DNA of 64,000 bases from Rickettsiales bacterium (lineage in GTDB: Bacteria; Pseudomonadota; Alphaproteobacteria; Rickettsiales; RI-342), in NCBI GenBank assembly GCA_044368015.1, contig JBIPLF010000002.1, positions 25,625 through 89,624 on the forward strand, given 5' to 3'. Of the stretch, positions 3,998 to 60,529 are shown piece after piece. The translations under genes were made by a program, and so were the position numbers. The notes under the pieces are model-generated. The model made no database searches. It had not been told where the DNA came from and saw nothing but the letters and a program-made list of their open reading frames with translations. Each line of letters starts with the position of its first letter. Within the stretch, counting starts at the first letter, position 1.

Positions 3998-4525
3998 ATG
4001 ACGGATCGCCGGGTGCTGCGCAACCCCGCACGCACTGTTGCCTGTTTGCCACGGGGGGCGCTGGTGATCCTGCGCGATTACGACCATCCGCAGCGCGAAT
4101 CCTATGCGCGCCTGTGGCGGAAGGAAACCCGCAAGCGTTGCGTGCTGTTGCTGGTCGCTGGTGATCCGGCATTGGCGCGTCGCGTGCAGGCTGATGGGGT
4201 GCATGTGCCGGAATATCAACTGGCAAAACTGAAACACTGGAAAACCTTGAATCCGCGTTGGTTTTTCTCGGCTTCTGCCCATTCGCTGCCCGCTTTGTTG
4301 CGTGCGCGTTATGCCGATGCTGTGCTCATTTCGCCCGTCTTCCCCACCGATTCGCACCCCAATGCAGGGGCGCTTGGCGTTATTCGCTTCCGTCATCTGG
4401 TCAGGCGGTCTAGCATTTCGGTGTGGGCGCTCGGGGGAATCTCGGCGCGTACGCTTCCCCGGTTACAGGGGGCAGGCATTGCCGGAATCGCTGGAATTCG
4501 GCTCTTTGATGCCACAGCCCTGTGA
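3998..4525 (+). CDS. thiamine-phosphate synthase family (ThiE/TenI-like) protein
   Basis: The TMP-TENI-like pattern is present: LLLVAGDPALARRVQADGVHV...SASAHS...ADAVLISPVFPT...VWALGGI. The start is uncertain, since the ORF is open from 3923. Confidence 0.65.
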   Translation: MTDRRVLRNPARTVACLPRGALVILRDYDHPQRESYARLWRKETRKRCVLLLVAGDPALARRVQADGVHVPEYQLAKLKHWKTLNPRWFFSASAHSLPALLRARYADAVLISPVFPTDSHPNAGALGVIRFRHLVRRSSISVWALGGISARTLPRLQGAGIAGIAGIRLFDATAL

Positions 4526-6055: not shown

Positions 6056-7927
6056 ATGCCGCTTTCCAATCAGAACCGTAAGCGCATTGCGGTCCTTCAC
6101 GATACCGTGATGGCGCCGCTGGCCCTCATCGTGGCGCTGATGCTGCGATTAGGGGAGGCGTTTCATCCCCTCACCGCTTCCTATCTGCCGCTGGCGGTGT
6201 GGTTGTTTACGGTCTGCGCGCTCACCGCCTTTATCCGGATGCGTTTGTATCGCAGCATGTGGCGTTTCGCCTCGGCGGAGGATTTGCTGGCGATCACCAA
6301 AGCCGCGTCGCTGACGCTCGCAATCTTCGTGCCGCTGCTGTTCCTCCTCACCCGGCTCGAAGGGTTTCCGCGCTCGGCGATTGCGATTGCCTGGCTGCTG
6401 TTGATTCTCTTCCTCTCGGTGCCGCGCCTGCTCTATCGCTGGTGGCGCGATGGTGGCATTACTCGCTGGGCGGGGGAGTTTCATGATCGCCGCGTGCCGG
6501 TGTTGCTGGTGGGAGCCACGACGGAAGCCGAGATGTTTATCCGCGAAACGGCGCGCCGTGGCCGTAGCCACTACAAGGTGGTGGCGATTCTGGACGATGC
6601 GCCGGACCGCATTGGCCGCAGCCTGCACGGCGTGCCGGTCTATGGCCCCTTTACCCTGTTCGATACGGTGATGGCCAAGCTCGCCCGCAAGGGGTTGACG
6701 CCGCACAAGCTGGTGCTGGCCGATCTCTCCCTCACGGGGGAGGCGTTGCGCACCATGGTGGCGCATAGCGAGGCGCATGGGCTTTCGATTGGCCGTCTGC
6801 CGCGTCTGGAGGCGTTGCAGGAACAGTCCGAGCGCATTCCGCTACAGCCAATTCCGGTGGAGGATCTACTGGGGCGTCCGCAACGGATTTACCAACCGGA
6901 GAAGCTGGCCGCCTTCACCGCCGGGAAGCGGGTGCTGGTCACCGGTGCGGGCGGCAGTATCGGTAGCGAACTATGCCGCCAGATTGCAGGGTTTGCACCT
7001 GCGGAACTGGTATTGTTTGAGCTTTCGGAATACCATCTCTATCGCATCGATCAGGAAATGGCGGAGCGTTTCCCTCACCTCCCCCGCCGCGCCGTGCTGG
7101 GGGATGTGCGTGACGCCGCCTGTGTGCGGACTGCGTGCGATGCCGCGCATCCGCATATCATGTTCCATGCGGCGGCGATCAAGCATGTACCGCTGGCGGA
7201 GGAAAACCCGCTGGCAGCTATCAGCACCAATGTGCTGGGGACGCATCATGTCGCGCAGGCGGCGATCGCCTCCGGTGCGGAAGCCATGGTGCTGATTTCT
7301 ACCGACAAAGCCGTGCACCCCACCAATGTGATGGGCGCCACCAAGCGTGCCGCCGAACGGGTGGTGCAGCAGGCGGGGCTTTCCGGTTCGGCAACGCGCT
7401 TTCTCACCGTGCGGTTTGGCAATGTACTGGGGTCTACGGGGTCGGTGGTGCCGCTTTTTACCCGGCAGATTGCGGAAGGCGGGCCGGTGACCATCACCGA
7501 TCCGCAGATGACGCGTTATTTCATGACCATCCGAGAAGCGGTGACGCTGGTGCTCCATGCCGCCATGCTGGGGAGTGCCGAAAAGGAGAGCAGTGGTGCG
7601 CTGTTTGTGCTTGATATGGGCGCTCCGGTGCGGATAGAAGACCTGGCGCGTCAGATGATTCGTCTGGCGGGTTTGCAGCCGGAAACGGATATTGCGCTTT
7701 CCTATGTGGGGATGCGTCCCGGCGAAAAGCTGGAAGAGGAGCTATTCTACACCGAAGAAGCGCCCTCCCCGACCCTCCAGCCGGGAATTCTGCTCGCCAG
7801 CCAGCCACAGGTCGCGGCCAAAAACTGGGAAAAAGAGATCGAAGGACTCCGTAAGCTATGTCAGCAATCACGCCCGCACGAGGCCTTGCAATGGTTGAAG
7901 AAACACACACCGGAATATCGGACGTGA
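6056..7927 (+). CDS. membrane-anchored polysaccharide biosynthesis protein, CapD/PglF/WbpM-type NDP-sugar 4,6-dehydratase
   Basis: 623 aa. It has N-terminal transmembrane segments, then [18 protein letters not shown] (Rossmann fold) and [17 protein letters not shown] (SDR catalytic region). Confidence 0.85.
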
Positions 7928-10360: not shown

Positions 10361-10370
10361 GGATCCCCCC

Positions 10371-10468
10371 GTCATCCTGAGTCAGCGGCGAAGGATCTCG
10401 CCCTTTACGAAACACAGATAGGCTGGAGCAAGCGGGGAGATCCTTCGGGGTCACCCCCTCAGGATGAC
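10371..10468. repeat. palindromic repeat, family A copy 1 (GTCATCCTGAG..GAAGGATCTC...GAGATCCTTCGGGG..CCTCAGGATGAC)
   Basis: Direct read. The two halves are inverted repeats around a variable core of about 35 bp. It lies 10 bp from B1. Confidence 0.8.
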
Positions 10469-10533
10469 GGTGCTCGCCGCTACGCCCTACGGCTGGAGAA
10501 ACATTGCATGATACCCGTTCCTGTCAATCGCGT

Positions 10534-14574: not shown

Positions 14575-14589
14575 CAGTTCTGGGTGGAC

Positions 14590-14689
14590 GTCATCCTGAG
14601 GGGATTTATTCCCGAAGGATCTCGCAGCCAGCGAAATGCTGATAGGTTTGCGCAAGCGGGGAGATCCTTCGCCTACGGCTCAGGATGAC
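14590..14689. repeat. palindromic repeat, family A copy 2
   Basis: gtcatcctgag...gaaggatctc...gagatccttcg...ctcaggatgac. It begins 16 nt after the mrdA stop. Confidence 0.8.
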
Positions 14690-14730
14690 GCTCCTCCTAT
14701 CAAGGGAGGGTGAGGAAAAAAGGGGAGGGT

Positions 14731-18276: not shown

Positions 18277-18327
18277 GCCATCGAGCGAAGTGCTTTCTTA
18301 TGGGGATCAGCCCTCCCCTCCTTACTA

Positions 18328-18479
18328 CCCCTCCCTGAATGGAAGGGGTCGGAATCGTTCACGATTCCGGGGGAGGGTGATGTTTCTGTACGTCACCCCC
18401 TCCCGGCCTCGCGTTAGCGATTTGCAGGACATCCGTTCTGCTCACGCCGCTCGCCGACCTCCCCTATCAAGGGGAGGTG
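18328..18479. repeat. about 150-bp repeat, family C copy 1
   Basis: cccctccctgaatggaaggggtcggaatcgttcacgattccgggggagggtga...ctcgccgacctcccctatcaaggggaggtg. A near-identical blockwise match lies at 60389-60529. It contains nested hairpins. Confidence 0.8.
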
Positions 18480-21384: not shown

Positions 21385-21482
21385 GTCATGCTGAGCAGAG
21401 CGAAGCATCTCGCCGCTTGCAAGAAGTATCAGTGCTTCGCCAAGCAGGGAGATCCTTCAGGGGCAAGCCCCCTCAGGATGAC
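21385..21482. repeat. palindromic repeat, family A copy 3 (GTCATGCTGAG variant)
   Basis: gtcatgctgagc...gaagcatctc...gagatccttcagggg...cctcaggatgac. The right terminus contains the ATG at 21478. Confidence 0.8.
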
Positions 21483-22767
21483 GCTCACCACTCTGGCCCT
21501 TTGTCTCCTCACCCTCCCCGCCCATGCGATCGAGATTCAGGACGTCCCTACCCCGTCCGGCGTTCCGCTCTGGCTGGTGGAAAACCATCAATTGCCGGTG
21601 ATTACCGTCAAATTCGCCTTTCGTGGGGCGGGGTATGCGACCGACACGCCCGACACACAGGGCCGCGCCGCCCTCCTCTCCCGGATGCTGACCGAAGGCG
21701 CGGGCGAGTATGACGGCCCTGCCTTCCAGAAAGCACTGGAGGAAAAGGCGATTGGCATCAGCTACAGCGCGGGTCTCGACCACTTCACCGGTACGGTGCA
21801 GATGCTGCGCGACGAGCGCGAAGATGCCTCACGCTTTGTAGCGCTGGTCCACGCCAAGCCGCGGATAGAGCAAGCCAGCCTCGCCCGTGTGGTACGCGAA
21901 TTTCAGATGGCGTTACAACAGGCCGAGCAACAGCCGGATGAACGCGCCAGCCGCCTGTGGTGGGAGCAGGCCTTTGCGGGGCACCCTTACGCGAATCCGT
22001 TGCTTGGCACAGCCGAAACCCTGCCCCGTATGACGCAGGGAGATGTGCGCGCCCAACTGGCGTCCCTCTCGCGTGACCGGCTGATTGTCACCATGGTGGG
22101 GGACGTTTCGCCGCAGGAAGCCGCCGATTGGGTGGAAAACGCCTTTGCCGCGCTCCCGCACACCTCCACGCTGCCTGCTATTTCGGCGGCCAGCATGGCC
22201 AAGGGTGCGACCGAACATGCCTCCCTCCCCGCCTCTCCGCAAACAGCGATTTCCTTCGGGCTGCCGGGACTGCCGCGCTCCGATCCCGATTACTACGCCG
22301 CCTACTTGCTCAACCATATATTGGGGGGGGGCACCTTCACTTCGCGGCTGGTGCAGGAAATCCGCGAGGAACGAGGCCTTGCCTATACGGTGGCCACCAA
22401 CCTCATCCCCATGGCGCAAAGTGCCGTGTGGCTGGGCTATGCGGGCGTGAGCAACGCGAATGTCCCGCAAACCATCCAGCTCATTCGCAGCACCCTGAAG
22501 GCAGTGCATGATAATGGCGTCACCGCGCAGGAACTGGCAGACGCCAAAACCCATGTGATCGGCGCGCTACCCCTGCAAATGGATAGTACCGCAGGACTCG
22601 CCGGTTTTATGCTTTCCATGCAGCTTTTAGGCCTGCCCCGCGACTATATTACCCAGCGTGACACCTTGTTTGGTGGTGTGACGCTGGAACAGGTCAACCG
22701 GGTGGCCAAACGCCAATTGAACCCAGACCAGTTACTGATTACTTTTGCCGGAGGAGGCGCATCATGA
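21478..22767 (+). CDS. M16-family peptidase (non-catalytic-type subunit, no HxxEH)
   Basis: The internal start gives the signal peptide MTLTTLALCLLTLPAHA. The sequence shows an M16 inactive-domain pattern and is paired with the upstream active M16. The N-terminal extension in the ORF track is translated repeat. Confidence 0.85.
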   Translation: MTLTTLALCLLTLPAHAIEIQDVPTPSGVPLWLVENHQLPVITVKFAFRGAGYATDTPDTQGRAALLSRMLTEGAGEYDGPAFQKALEEKAIGISYSAGLDHFTGTVQMLRDEREDASRFVALVHAKPRIEQASLARVVREFQMALQQAEQQPDERASRLWWEQAFAGHPYANPLLGTAETLPRMTQGDVRAQLASLSRDRLIVTMVGDVSPQEAADWVENAFAALPHTSTLPAISAASMAKGATEHASLPASPQTAISFGLPGLPRSDPDYYAAYLLNHILGGGTFTSRLVQEIREERGLAYTVATNLIPMAQSAVWLGYAGVSNANVPQTIQLIRSTLKAVHDNGVTAQELADAKTHVIGALPLQMDSTAGLAGFMLSMQLLGLPRDYITQRDTLFGGVTLEQVNRVAKRQLNPDQLLITFAGGGAS

Positions 22768-43377: not shown

Positions 43378-43471
43378 GTCATCCTGAGCATCGCGAAGGA
43401 TCTCCCCGCGTGCATAACCTCCGTGTCTCGTAAACAGAGAGATCCTTCGGGGGTAAACCCCTCAGGATGAC
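43378..43471. repeat. palindromic repeat, family A copy 4
   Basis: gtcatcctgagc..gaaggatctc...gagatccttcggggg...ctcaggatgac. It fills the gap between convergent ltaE and fdx almost exactly. Confidence 0.8.
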
Positions 43472-43475
43472 GACG

Positions 43476-50071: not shown

Positions 50072-51082
50072 TTAGGTTCGGATGCCCGCCACCAGCATCG
50101 CCTGCGCGGTGAGGGTCTGCGGCGAGGCAAGGCTGCTTTTACAGTGTTTCTCCAGCGTAAACAGCATGGAAAGGCACTGCGAGAGCCGCTCCACCGTCCA
50201 GTAGGAGAGTTCCTGACGCACCTGCGGCTTTTGCTTGAAGAACAGGGGAGGGCGCGCCTGTTCAATCGCCTGATCAAGGCTGGCCCCCGCCTCCATCGCC
50301 CCGCGTAAATGCTGGAGCAGCAGGGCACGGCGCAGCAGCACGCGAATGATCATGATCGGCTGCGTGCCCTCCTGAAACAGCCGCGTCAGCGCATGGTCCA
50401 GCTGCGAGGGCAACCCGCCAAACATGCCATGCAGGCAATCATCGAGCGAGGTGGCCGACACATCCCCCACCACTGCTTGCACATCCTCCAGCGTGATTTC
50501 CTTCGCTTCGCCCATATAGGTCAGCAGCTTTTCCAGCTCTTTGCGCGTCACGGCGCGGTCCATCCCCACATGCTCGGAAAGATAGGTGAGCGCATCGGGC
50601 TGTGCGCGTTTGCCCGCCTCACTCAGCATCCCCTGCACCAGCCGGGTGAGCACCTGCCCTTCATCGGCGTAACAGCCGATCGCCGCCGCCTGCGGATGGG
50701 TTTCGCACAACACCCGCAGCTTGGATTTCGGCGGCAGGCTTTCCGCCGTCAGCAGCAGCACGTTTCCGCTTTGCACGCCGAGTAAACCTGTCAGCGTGGG
50801 CACCAGCTTCTCGCCCGCATGGCGGACACGGATCACCCGCACATCGCCGAACAGACTGCTGGCCGCCCATTCATCCGCCAGCCGGGCGGGATCGTCGGCA
50901 ATTTCCTTCGCCGTGAAATCCAGCACTTCCAGCTTATCGGCCGGTAATCCGGTGAGGCTGCCCGCAAAACGCTGGGTGTATTCCTCGGTCATGCCTTCGT
51001 CATTGCCGAAGGCCAGCAGTACTCGCACCCCCTTGGCGGGGGATTTCACGAAGGATTCAGCCTGCGCGGGGGCGATTTTCAT
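50072..51082 (-). CDS. holA: DNA polymerase III delta subunit
   Basis: 336 aa. The N-terminus ...VLLAFGNDEGMTEEY and its position in the conserved leuS-lptE-holA cluster support the call. Confidence 0.85.
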   Translation of the reverse strand: MKIAPAQAESFVKSPAKGVRVLLAFGNDEGMTEEYTQRFAGSLTGLPADKLEVLDFTAKEIADDPARLADEWAASSLFGDVRVIRVRHAGEKLVPTLTGLLGVQSGNVLLLTAESLPPKSKLRVLCETHPQAAAIGCYADEGQVLTRLVQGMLSEAGKRAQPDALTYLSEHVGMDRAVTRKELEKLLTYMGEAKEITLEDVQAVVGDVSATSLDDCLHGMFGGLPSQLDHALTRLFQEGTQPIMIIRVLLRRALLLQHLRGAMEAGASLDQAIEQARPPLFFKQKPQVRQELSYWTVERLSQCLSMLFTLEKHCKSSLASPQTLTAQAMLVAGIRT

Positions 51083-51711
51083 GGCAACTCCGCCAGTTTA
51101 ATGGCCAACCGCTGCACCGTATCATTCGCGGCTTGCTCCACTGCGCGACGGCTGGCATCGCGCTCGGCGATAAAGGACGCAAAATCGGCATCCAGCACGT
51201 TATAGCCGCTGTAACTGCGCACTACGTCGCGCATCACTTCCTTGCCATTGCTATCTTTTAGGACCAGTGTCACCAGCATCACGGTATCGTAGCGGGAAAT
51301 GCGCCCGTCTTTCCGCACCACCACCGGCTGAAGTTGTTTTTCAATCGCCGGTTCCAGCCGGTAGAGCGGCTTACCAGCACGTGGCGGCAGGGCATCGGTG
51401 AGGGCAATGGCGAAGAGCTGCCCCAGCCGCCCCGGAGGCTGCACCACCTCGATGTGCGTGAGGCTTGCGCGTTGTTCAGCCGACGGCGTGGCATAGAGCG
51501 GGTGGAAACCGCAGGCGGGGAGGGTGAGGAGGGTGCAGAGGAGAAGAATCCTAGAGTTTTGGAATATTGGAATTGTAGAACTGCGGAACTGTAGAACCTT
51601 GGAATTGTAGAATTCTGGAATTGCAGAACGGTAACGGACGCAGAATCCGCGCCCTTTCTTCCATACCCCAATATTCCAAAACTCCACCATTCCAGTATTC
51701 CAGTATTCCAA
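51079..51711 (-). CDS. lptE: LPS-assembly lipoprotein LptE (start codon unresolved)
   Basis: The lipobox LLLCTLLTLPA|CGFHPLYA and an LptE-like body are present, in the position between leuS and holA. The only canonical in-frame starts lie 50-65 codons upstream inside the AT-rich repeat array. Confidence 0.7.
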   Translation of the reverse strand: MEYWNTGMVEFWNIGVWKKGRGFCVRYRSAIPEFYNSKVLQFRSSTIPIFQNSRILLLCTLLTLPACGFHPLYATPSAEQRASLTHIEVVQPPGRLGQLFAIALTDALPPRAGKPLYRLEPAIEKQLQPVVVRKDGRISRYDTVMLVTLVLKDSNGKEVMRDVVRSYSGYNVLDADFASFIAERDASRRAVEQAANDTVQRLAIKLAELP

Positions 51712-51746
51712 GGTTCTACAGTTCTAAAATTCCACAATTCTAACCC
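51553..51746. repeat. AT-rich mosaic of GGAAT/ATTCC-based short repeats
   Basis: Four tandem 16-bp units lie at 51568-51631: ggaattgtagaactgc, ggaactgtagaacctt, ggaattgtagaattct, ggaattgcagaacggt. attccagt occurs twice downstream. Inverted copies pair 51585-51604 with 51706-51725 and 51554-51570 with 51669-51685. Confidence 0.85.
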
Positions 51747-54317
51747 TCATGCCGCCACCACATTGACAATCTTATTTGGCACCACAATCACCTTGCGGAT
51801 GGTTTTCCCCTCCACCTGCTGCTGCACGGAAGGGAGCGCCAATGCCTGCGATTCCAGTGCCTGTTGTCCGGCATCGCGGGGGGCATCGAGTGTCGCCCGC
51901 AGCTTGCCATTCACCTGCACGGCGATCGTCACCGTCTCCTCCACCAGAAAGCGCGGATCGGCGACCGGCCAAGCCCGTTCGCAGAGGAGGTCCTGATGCC
52001 CCATGCTGTGCCACAACGCTTCGGTGATATGCGGGATCATCGGTTGCGCCAGATGCAGAAACACCGAAATCCCCTCGCCCAGCAAAGCGTGCTGCACGGG
52101 ATCGGCAGGCGATAGCCGCATCAGCGCATTGGTCAGTTCCCGCAACCGCGCCACCGCCCGGTTGAAGCGGAATCCGGCGATGTCATCCGTCACAAAAGCG
52201 ATGGTTTTGTGGATCAGCACCCGCACGGCTTCCAGTTCCGGAGAGAGCGTTTCCGGTAGTGCGGCGGTTTGCGTACCCGCCGCGCACCAATCCCCCACCC
52301 ATTGCCAGATGCGGTTGAGGTAGCGCCATGCCCCGTCAATCCCGGCATCTGACCATTCGAGATCCCGCTCCGGCGGGCTGTCGGACAGCATAAAGAGCCG
52401 CGCCGTATCCGCCCCAAACTCGTTTAGAATCCCTTCCGGATCCACCGTGTTGCGTTTGGATTTGCTCATTTTTTCCGAGCGCCCGGCGGTCACCACCTCG
52501 CCCGTCTCGGCATGGGTGAGCGCGCCGTCCTTCCGCACCACTTCGGTCGGGTAGAGCCATTTGCCGCCGCTATCGCGGTAGGTTTCGTGGCACACCATCC
52601 CTTGCGTCACGAGCTGCTTGAAGGGTTCATCCGGCACGGGATAGCCGCACACCTTCAGCGCCCGCATGAAAAACCGCGAATAGAGCAGGTGCAGAATCGC
52701 ATGTTCGATCCCGCCGATATAGGTATCGACCGGCAGCCAGCGTTTGGCGCTCTCAGCATGTAGCGGATCGGCATGATGCGCGGTGGCGAAGCGCGCAAAA
52801 TACCAGGAAGATTCCATGAACGTATCGAACGTATCCGTCTCCCGACGTGCCGGAGCGTTGCACTTCGGGCAGGAGGTGTGTTTCCAGCTTGGGTGATGAT
52901 CCAACGGGTTACCAGAAACCGATAAATCCACATCCTCCGGCAGGGTGACGGGGAGTTGATCCTTCGGCACCGGCACGACGCCGCACGCCTCGCAATGGAT
53001 GACGGGAATCGGGCATCCCCAATAGCGTTGACGGGAAACCCCCCAATCACGCAACCGGAATTGCACGGTGCGTTTGCCCAGGCCTTTTGCTTCCAGATGG
53101 TCGATGATGGTTTTTTTTGCTTCCGCGACACTCAACCCATTGAGGAAATCCGAATGCACCAGCACGCCGTCATCGGTGTAGGGGGTGTTCGTTGCCGTGA
53201 AATCCGGCTGGTCTTTGGGGGCCACCACGGTGAGAATGGGGAGCTGGTATTTCAGGGCAAATTCCATGTCACGCTCATCATGAGCGGGGCAGCCAAACAA
53301 CGCGCCGGTGCCATATTCCATCAGCACGAAATTGGCGACATAGAGCGGGAATGTTTTCCCCGGAATCAGCGGATGCACCAGCCGAAACCCCGTATCAAAC
53401 CCGCGTTTTTCGGCTTTCTCCAGTGCTTCCTCACTGGTGCCGATGCGGTTGCATTCGGCGATGAAGGCCGCCAGTTCCGGGTTGGTTTCCGCCAATGCCT
53501 TCGCCAGCGGATGACCGGGGGAAATCGCCCCAAACGACGCGCCAAACATCGTATCGGGTCGGGTGGTGAAGATTTCGAGCTTCTCGCTACGCCCCGCGAC
53601 CTCAAACCACACCCGTGCCCCTTCCGAGCGGCCAATCCAGTTGGATTGCATCAGCCGCACCCGTTCCGGCCAGTCGGGCAGATGATCCAGCGCGTCCAAA
53701 AGTTCTTGCGCGAAGTCACCAATGCGGAAAAACCATTGTTTGAGGAGTTTGCGCTCCACCAATGCGCCGGAACGCCAGCCGCGCCCCTCAATCACCTGCT
53801 CGTTGGCGAGCACGGTCTGGTCGATCGGATCCCAGTTCACCACCGATTCCTTGCGGTAGACCAGCCCCTTCTCCCACATCTCCAGAAAGAAACGTTGCTC
53901 ATGCTGGTAGTAGTCGGGTGCGCAGGTGGCCAGTTCCCGCGACCAGTCATAGGAAAAACCAATCCGTTGCAACTGCCCACGCATATGGTCGATATTGGCG
54001 TAGGTCCAGCTTGCCGGATGGGTGTTGCGCTCCTTCGCGGCGTTTTCTGCCGGGAGGCCGAACGCATCCCACCCCATCGGGTGCAGCACCTCGAACCCCT
54101 GCGCCCGCTTGGTGCGGGCGACGACATCGCCCAGCGTGTAGTTACGCATATGCCCCATATGGATGCGCCCGGAAGGGTAGGGGAACATCTCCAGCACATA
54201 GTAGCGCGGCTTGTCGCTGGTATCGGAAGCGCGGAAGCTCCCGCGCTCCTCCCAGCGTGCCTGCCAGTGGGCTTCAATGGAAACGGGGTCGTAGGTCACC
54301 ATACTTGTCCTATTCAT
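51747..54317 (-). CDS. leuS: leucine--tRNA ligase
   Basis: 856 aa with [15 protein letters not shown] (HIGH region) and KMSKSKRN (KMSKS). Confidence 0.98.
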
Positions 54318-56319: not shown

Positions 56320-56415
56320 GTCATGCTGAGCGTAGCGAAGCATCTCTCCATTTACGCAAACCTATCCGCGTTTTGCAAATGGGGAGATCCTTCGGGGTAA
56401 ACCCCTCAGGATGAC
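56320..56415. repeat. palindromic repeat, family A copy 5 (GTCATGCTGAG variant)
   Basis: gtcatgctgagcgtagcgaagcatctc...gagatccttcggggtaaacccctcaggatgac. It starts 5 nt after the thiS stop, between convergent genes. Confidence 0.8.
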
Positions 56416-56442
56416 GTTCCCAGACGGGCAGTAACGTCTCCT

Positions 56443-60336: not shown

Positions 60337-60388
60337 CGATGTGTAGTCAACCTATAACGTCTTCTAATGATTGTCAGACTCTTCTTCA

Positions 60389-60529
60389 CCCCTCCCTGAA
60401 TGGGAGGGGTCGGAATCGTGCACGATTCCGGGGGAGGGTGATTCTTTACGTCACCCCCTCCCGGTCTCGCTGGCGATTCGCCATACTGGCTCACGCTGCT
60501 CGCCGACCTCCCCCATCAAGGGGGAGGTG
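60389..60529. repeat. about 150-bp repeat, family C copy 2
   Basis: cccctccctgaatgggaggggtcggaatcgtgcacgattccgggggagggtga...ctcgccgacctcccccatcaagggggaggtg. It matches 18328-18479 block by block. Confidence 0.8.

What the first reader, a model, noticed from the sequence alone, without database searches (positions are those of the whole stretch)
51553..51746. AT-rich array of 16-bp tandem units and inverted GGAAT/ATTCC modules inserted between leuS and lptE
In a locus where leuS and lptE normally abut, there is a block of about 195 bp that is very different from the GC-rich surroundings. It has four tandem 16-bp units: GGAATTGTAGAACTGC, GGAACTGTAGAACCTT, GGAATTGTAGAATTCT and GGAATTGCAGAACGGT (51568-51631). 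ATTCCAGT occurs twice. Two inverted module pairs are arranged A-B...A'-B' (51554-70 with 51669-85; 51585-604 with 51706-25). That arrangement is not a simple hairpin; it could form a pseudoknot-like or cruciform alternative. A regular 16-bp phasing of a GGAAnTG(T/C)AGAA motif looks like an array of protein-binding sites (iteron-like) or a short satellite. Both minus-strand frames stay open through it, giving peptides such as EYWNTG/EFWNIG/IPEFYNS.
Basis: seen in the sequence. Interest (0 to 1): 0.6.

Follow-up and report, generated by a model that had tools for sequence, protein, structure and literature searches.

The report
Octamer-array repeat splitting leuS from lptE
The odd AT-rich block between leuS and lptE is one copy of a widespread small repeat that I could not find described: two facing arrays of an 8-base TGGAAT-type unit, which here cut lptE off from its original start codon.

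Summary
About 10 RGAAY-NNN octamers lie at 51553-51632. A 40-nt GC-richer centre follows, with a small hairpin at 51636-51654. About 10 octamers in the opposite orientation lie at 51673-51748.

The block sits exactly on the leuS-stop/lptE-start overlap (ATGA, 51750-51747). Four relatives have leuS and lptE abutting or overlapping, one with the identical ATGA. The block separates lptE from its ATG after 4-5 codons.

It belongs to a widespread interspersed repeat. A pattern scan saturated at 120 metagenome loci, and cultured Mesorhizobium and Sandaracinomonas carry the same architecture. Shared traits are T-GGAAT-R-N units, TGGG/CCCA inner borders, AT-richness, and location in short gaps between co-directional or convergent genes. 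Several contigs hold more than one copy, and close relatives differ in presence. A profile of those arms hits the window only here (E=6e-8).

The two arms of one element are no more complementary than arms of unrelated copies. Arm lengths and phase are independent. There is no strand bias in folding and no target duplication. So the hairpin is a by-product of oriented motif arrays. This points to a protein reading the octamer core, not a selected RNA fold.

Rfam and the literature searches returned nothing. The closest known kinds are cyanobacterial STRR hairpins, REPINs and MITEs.

The parts
51747..51750 (-). ATGA: the leuS stop codon (TGA, 51749-51747) overlapping the ancestral lptE start codon (ATG, 51750-51748)
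   Evidence: An identical GGCGGCATGA overlap is used as the lptE start in relative L131.
51724..51746 (-). Orphaned first codons of the ancestral lptE (R V R I V E F) ending at an in-frame TAG (51726-51724). This stretch is at the same time the outermost octamers of the array.
   Evidence: Translation.
51673..51748 (+). Right arm: about 10 octamers nnn-RTTCY. Read on the minus strand it is the 5' arm of the mRNA: ..CTTGGAATACTGGAATACTGGAATGGTGGAGTTTTGGAATATTGGGGTA. This arm is typical of the family.
   Evidence: The family arm profile hits 51665-51717 on the minus strand with E=6e-8 and 1e-6.
51633..51672 (.). Centre, 40 nt, GC-richer than the arms. It holds a small hairpin at 51636-51654 (minus-strand RNA GGGCGCGGAUUCUGCGUCC, 8 pairs). 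Two of the pairs are G.U in the sense RNA and would be A.C on the other strand.
   Evidence: Fold; sequence. No terminator-like or promoter-like site was found by the scan.
51553..51632 (+).
   Evidence: The family arm profile hits 51555-51621 on the plus strand with E=2e-3 and 3e-3.
51688..51690 (-). ATG inside the element, used as the lptE start by the public annotation (203-aa product). An in-frame TTG at 51711-51709 lies upstream of it.
   Evidence: Whether this start is used is not known.
51079..51552 (-). lptE body: R I L L L C T L L T L P A C (lipobox), then the LptE domain. The stop overlaps the start of the next gene, a holA-like ORF of 336 aa at 50072-51082.
   Evidence: Pfam LptE E=2.8e-5, above the curated cut-off. 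33% identity to L131 LptE from the lipobox onward.
51750..54317 (-). leuS (856-aa ORF). Its C-terminus, ..NKIVNVVAA, matches that of L131.

Best explanation
The block is one copy of a non-coding, multi-copy interspersed repeat. Its two arms are facing (convergent) arrays of an 8-bp unit with a conserved core (family consensus T-GGAAT-R-N; here GGAAT/AGAAC variants), around a variable centre.

**What happened at this locus.**
- Shown: in this uncultured alphaproteobacterium the block occupies the leuS-stop/lptE-start overlap, 4-5 codons into lptE. It separates the LptE lipoprotein signal peptide and body from the ancestral ATG and from translational coupling to leuS.
- Inferred: the operon is still read through. 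lptE is now started from a codon inside or just after the element. Candidates are the in-frame ATG at 51690, which gives a 45-residue N-terminal extension, or a non-canonical start nearer the hydrophobic segment.

**What the family looks like.**
- Shown: the arms behave as independent arrays of an oriented short motif, not as a selected hairpin. Copies are dispersed, present or absent among close relatives, and carry no target-site duplications.
- Inferred: the conserved octamer core is the recognition site of a protein. The most likely candidate is the enzyme that copies the element, possibly acting on single-stranded DNA as for REP/RAYT or IS200/IS605-like systems. A host DNA-binding factor is the alternative.
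- Inferred: the hairpin that the transcript can form is a side effect. It may still act as an mRNA processing or stability site.
For: **Anatomy.**

**Junction.**
- The ATGA overlap is followed by M R V R I V E F stop; the body resumes at S R I L L L C T L L T L P A C.
- Four relatives have leuS and lptE abutting or overlapping and LptE of 171-181 aa. L131 has the identical overlap.
- LptE homology begins at the lipobox.

**Family.**
- A genome scan found the same forward-array/centre/inverted-array layout in Mesorhizobium (L123) and Sandaracinomonas (L127) isolates, and related arrays in MAGs of other phyla.
- A metagenome scan saturated at 120 loci.
- These loci share features the search pattern did not impose: T before the core in 87%, a purine after it in 90%, a TGGG inner border, and 117 of 120 AT-richer than their locus.
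- A profile of 237 such arms hits the window only at the finding: E=6e-8 and 1e-6 on the minus strand, 2e-3 and 3e-3 on the plus strand.

**Dispersal.**
- Second full or decayed copies lie on the same contigs: L166, L205, L255, L254, L249 and others. Spacers and centres are shared between copies.
- The queA-tgt spacer is empty in L276/L277, holds a remnant in L279, and is full in L201, at 89-94% Tgt identity.

**Context.** 42 elements lie between co-directional genes, 14 between convergent genes and 1 between divergent genes. Some lie inside operons, such as ilvB-ilvN in L166.

**Independent arms.**
- Within-element complementarity is 0.817, against 0.811 for arms of different elements. Spacer positions are at chance.
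- Unit numbers of the two arms are uncorrelated (rho -0.05). Phase across the centre is uniform.
- There is no sense/antisense folding bias (p=0.49).
- There is no target-site duplication signal.
Against: - Only one copy lies in the 64-kb window, and the host genome could not be scanned. Multi-copy status in this organism is therefore unproven.
- No close relative of the host exists in the collections (best LeuS identity 64%). The empty site is inferred from distant relatives only.
- The left arm is an atypical variant with weak profile scores.
- Homology between the phylum-specific versions is not established, because the search pattern itself fixed the core.
- No protein partner or autonomous element was found.
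- The 8-bp periodicity extends weakly 2-3 units into the lptE coding sequence. This would also fit local growth of the array.
- Which start codon lptE now uses is unknown.
Confidence: 0.72

Rival explanations
1. It is a functional array of protein-binding sites placed here for the host: an iteron, centromere-like or operator array that controls replication, segregation or leuS-lptE-holA expression.
For: - The 6-nt core is conserved at a strict 8-nt phase with free spacers and no compensatory pairing.
- Octamer arrays in facing orientation occur next to a primase-like gene in GC-rich viral contigs, where an origin role is plausible.
- From my own knowledge, not tested here: MetJ met-boxes (8 bp), ParG boxes (8-bp spacing) and omega heptads are bound as tandem arrays.
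Against: - The element is multi-copy and scattered in unrelated operon spacers, in either orientation.
- It is nearly absent from divergent (promoter) regions: 1 of 57.
- No replication, partition or regulator gene is linked here or in the family.
- The element is gained and lost between close relatives.
- The two arms are not phase-locked.
Confidence: 0.1
2. It arose on the spot. A short native palindrome-like seed (..AGAATTCTT..) expanded by replication slippage and template switching into two facing micro-satellite arrays, without any mobile element.
For: - The weak 8-bp periodicity continues into the flanking lptE codons.
- Unit numbers differ between orthologous copies (L166 against L213) and between the two arms.
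- There are no target duplications.
- A related genome has a different heptamer array in the very spacer that holds the element in L201.
Against: - The same core, T/purine context and TGGG border recur in more than 120 unrelated loci.
- Copies at different loci of one contig share spacer dinucleotides and the centre. This needs copying, not independent growth.
- One sub-family has fixed non-repetitive ends of 85 and 24 nt.
Confidence: 0.1
3. It is a selected RNA structure in the leuS-lptE-holA mRNA: a stabiliser, an RNase III or RNase E processing site, an attenuator, or a device that uncouples translation.
For: - The predicted fold is very stable (-90 kcal/mol, z -8.2).
- The central hairpin has two G.U pairs that work only in the sense RNA.
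- Cyanobacterial STRR hairpins between co-transcribed genes have been proposed to stabilise transcripts or couple translation (PMC2670836).
Against: - There is no compensatory variation. Arm complementarity equals that of unrelated arms.
- There is no sense-strand folding advantage in 42 co-directional contexts.
- The asymmetric sub-family inserts in both orientations, 10 same against 8 opposite.
- Rfam has no family covering it.
- No terminator-like site was found.
Confidence: 0.06
4. It is either a genuine coding N-terminal extension or domain of LptE, or an assembly artefact.
For: - The frame from ATG 51690 is open into lptE, and the public annotation calls a 203-aa protein.
- The source is a metagenome contig.
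Against: - Relatives have no such extension.
- The Pfam LptE match starts at residue 80.
- All six frames are nearly stop-free because of the repeat composition.
- The sequence is periodic at 8 nt, which is not a multiple of 3.
- The same architecture occurs in more than 100 independent assemblies, including cultured isolates. This rules out a local artefact.
Confidence: 0.02

Closest known systems
Cyanobacterial STRR (short tandemly repeated repetitive) sequences
   Same: Both are short tandem units of sub-10 bp in intergenic spacers, including between co-transcribed genes (hupS-hupL). Both can form hairpins when arrays face each other. Both are multi-copy, and their function is unknown (PMC2670836).
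   Different: STRR units are 7 bp, with other sequences, and are described in filamentous cyanobacteria. Here the unit is 8 bp with a TGGAAT/RGAAY core. The carriers seen are Alphaproteobacteria, Bacteroidota and Desulfobacterales. The facing-array-plus-centre layout is the rule.
REP/REPIN elements mobilised by RAYT transposases (GTAG- or CGTC-tagged palindromes; PMC3733652, PMC3116915)
   Same: Both are small, non-coding and multi-copy. Both sit just downstream of genes or inside operons, lack target duplications, and form inverted doublets that fold as long hairpins. The host window itself carries 5 CGTC-tagged REP doublets.
   Different: The arms here are not GC-rich palindromes with a GTAG or CGTC tag. 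They are AT-rich tandem octamers, and no RAYT link was shown. The Desulfobacterales sub-family has a conserved CGTC in its left end and a GCGAAGC mini-hairpin in its right end. This is only a hint.
Bacterial MITEs (Correia, ERIC, RUP, Nezha and others) and eukaryotic Foldback or Ac/Ds-type elements with repeat-built ends
   Same: Both are non-autonomous, about 100-300 bp, with inverted arms, located between genes and variably present. Foldback and Ac/Ds ends are built of short tandem or subterminal repeats that bind the transposase (my own knowledge).
   Different: No target-site duplication was found. No related transposase-bearing parent was found. The arms vary independently in unit number.
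Tandem short-unit protein-binding arrays: MetJ met-boxes, ParG and omega centromere/operator arrays, phage P4 octamer iterons
   Same: Both show a fixed short phase (7-8 bp), oriented units in direct and facing arrangement, and conserved cores with free spacers. All of this comparison is from my own knowledge.
   Different: Those arrays are single-locus and linked to their cognate gene or origin. This family is dispersed through chromosomes with no linked gene.

Membership tests
   About 10 + 10 units and a 40-nt centre. The window sequence satisfies the pattern used.
These features were not imposed by the search pattern. | tested here: met
   In the minus-strand 5' arm, T precedes 5 of 5 inner units, a purine follows 4 of 5, and the border is TGGGGTA. 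The profile hit has E=6e-8 and lies only at this place in 64 kb. The other arm is a variant (E about 2e-3).
   GC is 0.41-0.45 against about 0.62 around it. The element lies between co-directional leuS and lptE. In the family, 117 of 120 are AT-richer and 56 of 57 lie in non-divergent contexts.
   There is one copy in the 64-kb window. The host genome is not in the searchable genome set: the scan did not return this locus, and the sample file was too large.
Classical MITE (cut-and-paste, DDE transposase) | Target-site duplication flanking the element | tested here: not met
   In the family, the longest shared flank word averages 4.01 against 4.02 in controls. At the window there is only an imperfect 6/9 direct repeat, GTTAGAATT / TCTAGGATT, which overlaps array units.
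Classical MITE (cut-and-paste, DDE transposase) | Terminal inverted repeats shared with a transposase-encoding parent element | not tested
   No parent element was seen in the loci held.
REP / REPIN (RAYT-associated) | A 20-40 nt GC-rich imperfect palindrome carrying a GTAG or CGTC tag | tested here: not met
   The arms are AT-rich tandem octamers without the tag. True CGTC-tagged REPs occur elsewhere in the window.
Iterons or centromere-like arrays | Tandem oriented repeats next to the cognate initiator or partition gene or origin | tested here: not met
   The neighbours are leuS, lptE and a holA-like gene. Family members sit in unrelated operon spacers.
Iterons or centromere-like arrays | Specific binding of a protein to the repeat unit | not testable with these tools
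   This needs EMSA or pull-down. The sequence statistics (conserved core, free spacers, no pairing constraint) are compatible with binding.
Cyanobacterial STRR | Heptanucleotide tandem unit | tested here: not met
   The unit is 8 nt.
Intrinsic terminator | A GC-rich stem-loop followed by a U tract on the transcribed strand | tested here: not met
   No terminator-like site at 51300-52000 on either strand. After the central hairpin the sense RNA reads GUUACCGUUCUG.
Any Rfam family | A covariance-model match | tested here: not met
   Only chance-level hits at E of 2.5 or more on the region. Nothing at gathering score in the window or on the elements in 14 related loci.
LptE N-terminal domain (coding) | Conserved at protein level in relatives | tested here: not met
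   Relatives start 17-30 residues before the lipobox Cys. The Pfam match covers residues 80-195 only. A word-based search found no homologue of the extension.

The most novel reading that the evidence does not exclude
Facing arrays of the TGGAAT-type octamer may define a previously uncatalogued class of bacterial mobile or interspersed DNA. In this reading, each arm is a stack of binding sites for a dedicated, still unidentified protein, which could be a single-strand HUH-type enzyme or a new DNA-binding factor.

The roughly 230-nt Desulfobacterales form would be the full non-autonomous unit. It has a fixed 85-nt left end containing a CGTC and a 24-nt right end with a GCGAAGC mini-hairpin.

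That would make it a bacterial counterpart of repeat-ended eukaryotic transposons such as Foldback and Ac/Ds. It would be able to land inside translationally coupled gene junctions such as leuS/lptE.
Probability: 0.3. Interest if true: 0.7.

Novelty: new variant of a known kind. Interest (0 to 1): 0.55.

Why it matters
**For this genome.** The element explains an annotation oddity: a 203-aa 'LptE' with a nonsense N-terminus. It also shows a normally essential outer-membrane assembly gene cut from its start codon and from translational coupling, yet apparently kept.

**More generally.** It exposes a large family of small repeats that is abundant in sediment and soil metagenomes and is also found in cultured Mesorhizobium and Sandaracinomonas. 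Rfam did not cover it, and my literature searches did not find it.

Its statistics are a conserved oriented core, independent arms and no pairing constraint. These make a concrete, testable prediction: a protein reads the octamer. Finding that protein would identify how the family spreads.

The family also matters for gene callers, which read through these elements and produce spurious extensions. It matters too for anyone using hairpin energy alone as evidence of a structured RNA.

Tried and rejected
- **Rfam.** The region at E up to 10, the whole window, and 14 related loci returned nothing relevant.
- **Fully degenerate octamer pattern on viral contigs.** It returned generic octamer micro-satellites and was too unspecific.
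- **Exact-protein look-up of the 856-aa LeuS ORF.** Not on record. The public call is 851 aa.
- **LptE homologue search.** It found only the protein itself, so close-relative junction comparison was impossible. I used LeuS relatives at 64% identity instead.
- **BLAST of the element and of the Mesorhizobium copy against plasmids.** No match, though the low-complexity filter may contribute. BLAST of the viral array region against phages also gave no match.
- **Literature.** Six searches, including literal repeat strings, returned no description. STRR was retrieved as the nearest analogue. The intrastrand-triplex repeat paper (PMC4666352) concerns a different G/C-rich motif.
- **Promoter and terminator scan.** Nothing found.
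- **Target-site duplication test.** Negative.
- **Sub-family end profiles against the window.** The left-end and right-end profiles of the Desulfobacterales sub-family gave no hit. The window copy is a 'core-only' form.
- **Left-end 16-mer scan of viral contigs.** Only chance matches.
- **Pfam on ORFs near the viral GGAAC arrays.** Empty. PHROGs gave a primase-like neighbour.
- **Readings considered and rejected.**
  - CsrA-type GGA sponge RNA: the GGA arrays would be masked by the opposite arm, and CsrA is, to my knowledge, uncommon in Alphaproteobacteria and Bacteroidota.
  - Chi-like arrays: Chi sequences are lineage-specific.
  - sigma-54 or ECF promoter arrays: the spacing is wrong, and the family avoids divergent regions.
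Full report
**1. What is in the sequence**

Between 51553 and 51748 the GC content drops from about 0.62 to 0.41-0.45.

It also reports period 8 and period 32 for the same stretch, and period-8/16 arrays on the other side (51673-51742, with ATTCCAGT x2.8 at 51689-51710).

Written out in 8-mers, the layout is simple:
- about ten RGAAY-nnn units at 51553-51632;
- a 40-nt centre;
- about ten units of the reverse complement (RTTCY) at 51673-51748.

The motif GGAAYTGYAGAAY, with one mismatch allowed, occurs six times, all of them here, against 0.45 expected. A scan for phased RGAA runs finds no other site in the 64 kb.

They are just two of the many registers that an 8-nt periodic pair of arrays can adopt. 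The best pairing is nested (51567-51621 with 51689-51743, 82%). The whole block is predicted to fold as one long bulged hairpin: RNA -90.1 kcal/mol, z -8.2; DNA z -6.5. All six reading frames are nearly free of stops, so the open frames carry no information.

**2. Where it sits**

leuS is the 856-aa ORF at 51747-54317 on the minus strand. Its stop, TGA at 51749-51747, overlaps an ATG at 51750-51748. From that ATG the frame reads M R V R I V E F and stops at a TAG (51726-51724).

In the same frame, 195 nt further on, the sequence reads ..N S R I L L L C T L L T L P A C G F H P L Y... This is a lipoprotein signal peptide and lipobox, followed by an LptE domain. Pfam gives E=2.8e-5, above the curated cut-off, matching residues 80-195 of the annotated protein.

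The four nearest available relatives have only 64% LeuS identity, because the host is an isolated alphaproteobacterial lineage from a metagenome. All four have leuS and lptE abutting or overlapping, with LptE of 171-181 aa.
- One of them, L131, has the same LeuS C-terminus (NKIVNVVAA), the same GGCGGCATGA overlap, and an LptE beginning MKARAIWGIILLPLWLVGCGF.
- BLASTP aligns the window's LptE to it from the lipobox onward at 33% identity.

The ATG at 51750 is therefore the ancestral lptE start. The ancestral N-terminus was close to M-R-V/A-R-I-L-L-L-C-T-L-L-T-L-P-A-C. The block is extra DNA, 189-195 bp and a multiple of three, lying 4-5 codons into the gene.

The public annotation starts lptE at the ATG inside the block (51690), giving 203 aa. 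Which start is really used cannot be told from sequence. The flanks show only an imperfect direct repeat (GTTAGAATT / TCTAGGATT, 6 of 9), which is itself array-like.

**3. It is a member of a large family**

A genome scan with a strict two-and-a-half-unit pattern gave ten hits in very different taxa.
- Several showed the same forward-array / centre / inverted-array layout. The clearest were the isolates Mesorhizobium sp. M8A (L123) and Sandaracinomonas limnophila (L127).
- The Mesorhizobium copy sits between convergent genes around a GC hairpin with a T-run.

A pattern requiring three phased units on each side, 40-70 nt apart, gave 21 viral contigs. With GGAAT ends it hit the 120-locus ceiling in metagenomes.

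Those 120 loci form a coherent family with properties the pattern did not dictate:
- T precedes the core in 87% of units, and a purine follows in about 90%;
- the next position is free;
- the arrays end inward with TGGG(T), mirrored by (A)CCCA;
- median length is 102 nt (range 82-272);
- 117 of 120 are AT-richer than their contig.

A profile built from 237 such arms hits the window only at the finding: minus strand 51665-51717 with E=6e-8 and 1e-6, plus strand 51555-51621 with E=2e-3 and 3e-3. The minus-strand 5' arm..CTTGGAATACTGGAATACTGGAATGGTGGAGTTTTGGAATATTGGGGTA, is a textbook member. The other arm, with alternating GGAATTGY and AGAAC units, is a variant closer to the Mesorhizobium type.

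**4. How the family behaves**

*Location.* Elements lie in short spacers. The median distance is 36 nt to the upstream ORF and 59 nt to the downstream one. Of 57 with clean contexts, 42 lie between co-directional genes, 14 between convergent genes, and 1 between divergent genes. Some are clearly inside operons. In L166, one copy lies before ilvB and one between ilvB and ilvN. In L205, copies follow two P-II paralogues.

*Copy number.* Thirteen further full or decayed copies turned up in the roughly 0.7 Mb of flanking sequence held. Copies on one contig share spacer dinucleotides and the centre, so they arose by copying.

*A sub-family with fixed ends.* About 27 of the 120 loci have fixed, non-repetitive ends, beyond which the flanks are unrelated.
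- The left end is about 85 nt: TAAYTAAACGTCTCGGAATTTCTACAAT..TTGAAAT..
- The right end is 24 nt: AATTG, then a hairpin with a GCGAAGC loop whose stem covaries (GGGGC/GCCCC, TTAGGC/GCCTAA), then CTAACTT.
- Its host is a Desulfobacterales bacterium.
- It inserts in either orientation relative to the neighbouring genes, 10 against 8.
- The window copy lacks these ends.

*Gain and loss.* At one site, queA-tgt, relatives with 86-94% identical Tgt differ:
- an empty 15-nt spacer in L276 and L277;
- a 30-nt remnant of the left end in L279;
- a different heptamer array in L278;
- the full element in L201.

*Target duplications.* None are detectable.

**5. Hairpin or motif array?**

The two arms of one element are 81.7% complementary in the best register. 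The left arm of one element against the right arm of a random other element scores 81.1%. The free spacer positions pair at chance level.

The numbers of units in the two arms are uncorrelated (rho -0.05). The phase between arms across the centre is uniform. Among 42 elements between co-directional genes, the sense strand folds no better than the antisense (p=0.49).

So nothing beyond the shared oriented core maintains the hairpin. What is conserved is a 6-nt word at a strict 8-nt spacing, in two independently varying stacks that face each other. That is the signature of sites read by a protein. It is not the signature of a selected RNA or DNA stem.

A stem of 6-bp blocks separated by 2x2 mismatches will nonetheless form in any transcript.

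**6. Most likely mechanism**

*Shown:*
- The block is a copy of this family.
- It lies on the former leuS/lptE overlap.
- It orphans the first codons of lptE.

*Inferred:*
- The element was copied in. The alternative, local growth, is less likely because family copies share spacers and centres.
- Copying would be by an enzyme that recognises the octamer stacks. The absence of target duplications, the either-orientation insertion, the preference for gene ends, and the stable GCGAAGC mini-hairpin in the sub-family's right end make a single-strand, REP/RAYT- or IS200/IS605-like route the best guess. No enzyme was identified.
- The operon is still transcribed through the element. No terminator-like site was found, and family members sit inside other operons.
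- lptE is translated from a new start within or just after the element.
- The transcript hairpin may act as a processing or stability site. This is a side effect, not the reason for conservation.

**7. Comparison with known kinds**

- **Cyanobacterial STRR sequences** are the nearest described thing. They are 7-bp tandem units between genes, including inside operons. They can form hairpins and their function is unknown (PMC2670836). The present family differs in unit length, sequence, hosts and its regular facing-array layout.
- **REP/REPIN elements** share the niche, the lack of target duplications and the doublet hairpin. However, they are GC-rich tagged palindromes (PMC3733652). The window has five genuine CGTC-tagged REP doublets of its own, which look quite different.
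- **Classical MITEs** fail on target duplication.
- **Iteron or centromere arrays** share the anatomy of the units but not the genomic behaviour.
- Rfam has no model for the element, and six literature searches found no description.

I therefore file it as a new variant of a known kind, namely small interspersed intergenic repeats.

Two caveats apply. First, the cross-phylum versions may be analogous rather than homologous, because my patterns fixed the core. Second, 'not found' in the searchable literature is not proof of novelty.

**8. Verdict**

- The insertion reading is supported.
- The iteron reading is partly supported in spirit: oriented protein-site-like units. It is not supported in function.
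- Interest is moderate. The local event is a tolerated hit on an essential-gene junction. The family behind it is large, apparently unnamed, and offers a clear experimental handle.

Noticed in passing
window 10370-10469, 14583-14693, 21385-21489, 43378-43472, 56320-56416: Five copies of a palindromic doublet of about 100 nt, e.g. GTCATGCTGAGCGTAGCGAAGCATCTC ... GAGATCCTTCGGGGTAAACCCCTCAGGATGACG. These are CGTC-tagged REP/REPIN-like elements, a second and different interspersed repeat family in the same host. Their GAGCGNAGCGAAG stretch resembles the right end of the Desulfobacterales sub-family (GTGAGCGAAGCGAAC).
   Followed up: partly
window 18327-18474 and 60388-60523: A two-copy repeat of about 150 nt at 83-96% identity across its three aligned blocks, rich in CCCCTCCC/GGGGGAGGG self-complementary stretches. 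It has no Rfam match at gathering score.
   Followed up: no
L135-L141, L143-L149, L152, L154, L155 (viral contigs of about 35-39 kb, GC 0.60-0.68): A conserved site: (TGGAACNN)x3, then a centre of about 40 nt with CGCGCGCG and TATAGGGA, then (NNGTTCCA)x3, plus single GGAAC sites further out. In L136 it lies about 0.7 kb beyond the end of a 656-aa primase-like gene (PHROG DNA primase, E=9e-31). It is probably a replication origin with octamer iterons.
   Followed up: partly
L004, L023, L033, L039, L059, L063, L071, L078, L084, L085, L108, L110, L111 and others (GC-rich viral contigs): A recurrent array TCGCGCCT(GGAACAGG)x6, followed by TGAAGCGATCGGCGACGCCGATCTG, shared by many GC-rich viral contigs. 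Its role is unknown.
   Followed up: no
L184, L210, L217, L224, L232, L243, L255 and others (about 27 of 120 metagenome loci): A Desulfobacterales sub-family in which the octamer arrays are embedded in an asymmetric unit of about 230 nt. It has a conserved 85-nt left end containing a CGTC and a 24-nt right end with a covarying hairpin closed on a GCGAAGC loop. L255 carries two copies in opposite orientation 4 kb apart.
   Followed up: partly
L278 1432-1500 (queA-tgt spacer): A different short tandem array, (YTAAAAC)n, occupies the same spacer that holds the TGGAAT element in L201. This suggests such operon spacers are hot spots for short-unit arrays.
   Followed up: no
L122 about 4420-4500 and L124 about 6610-6710 (Candidatus Ribeiella danica, GC 0.70): A dispersed element with a shared flank (AGCCTTCCAGAAAAGCGTG..GGTTGTCGCCAGTTGGTTCTG), followed by GTTCT/GGAAC octamers in the opposite, diverging arrangement.
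   Followed up: no
window 51079-51690 (public annotation of lptE): The public gene call (203 aa) starts at an ATG inside the repeat. Its first 45 residues or so (MVEFWNIGVWKKGRGFCVRYRSAIPEFYNS...) are repeat-encoded and have no homologue. This is probably a mis-annotated start.
   Followed up: yes
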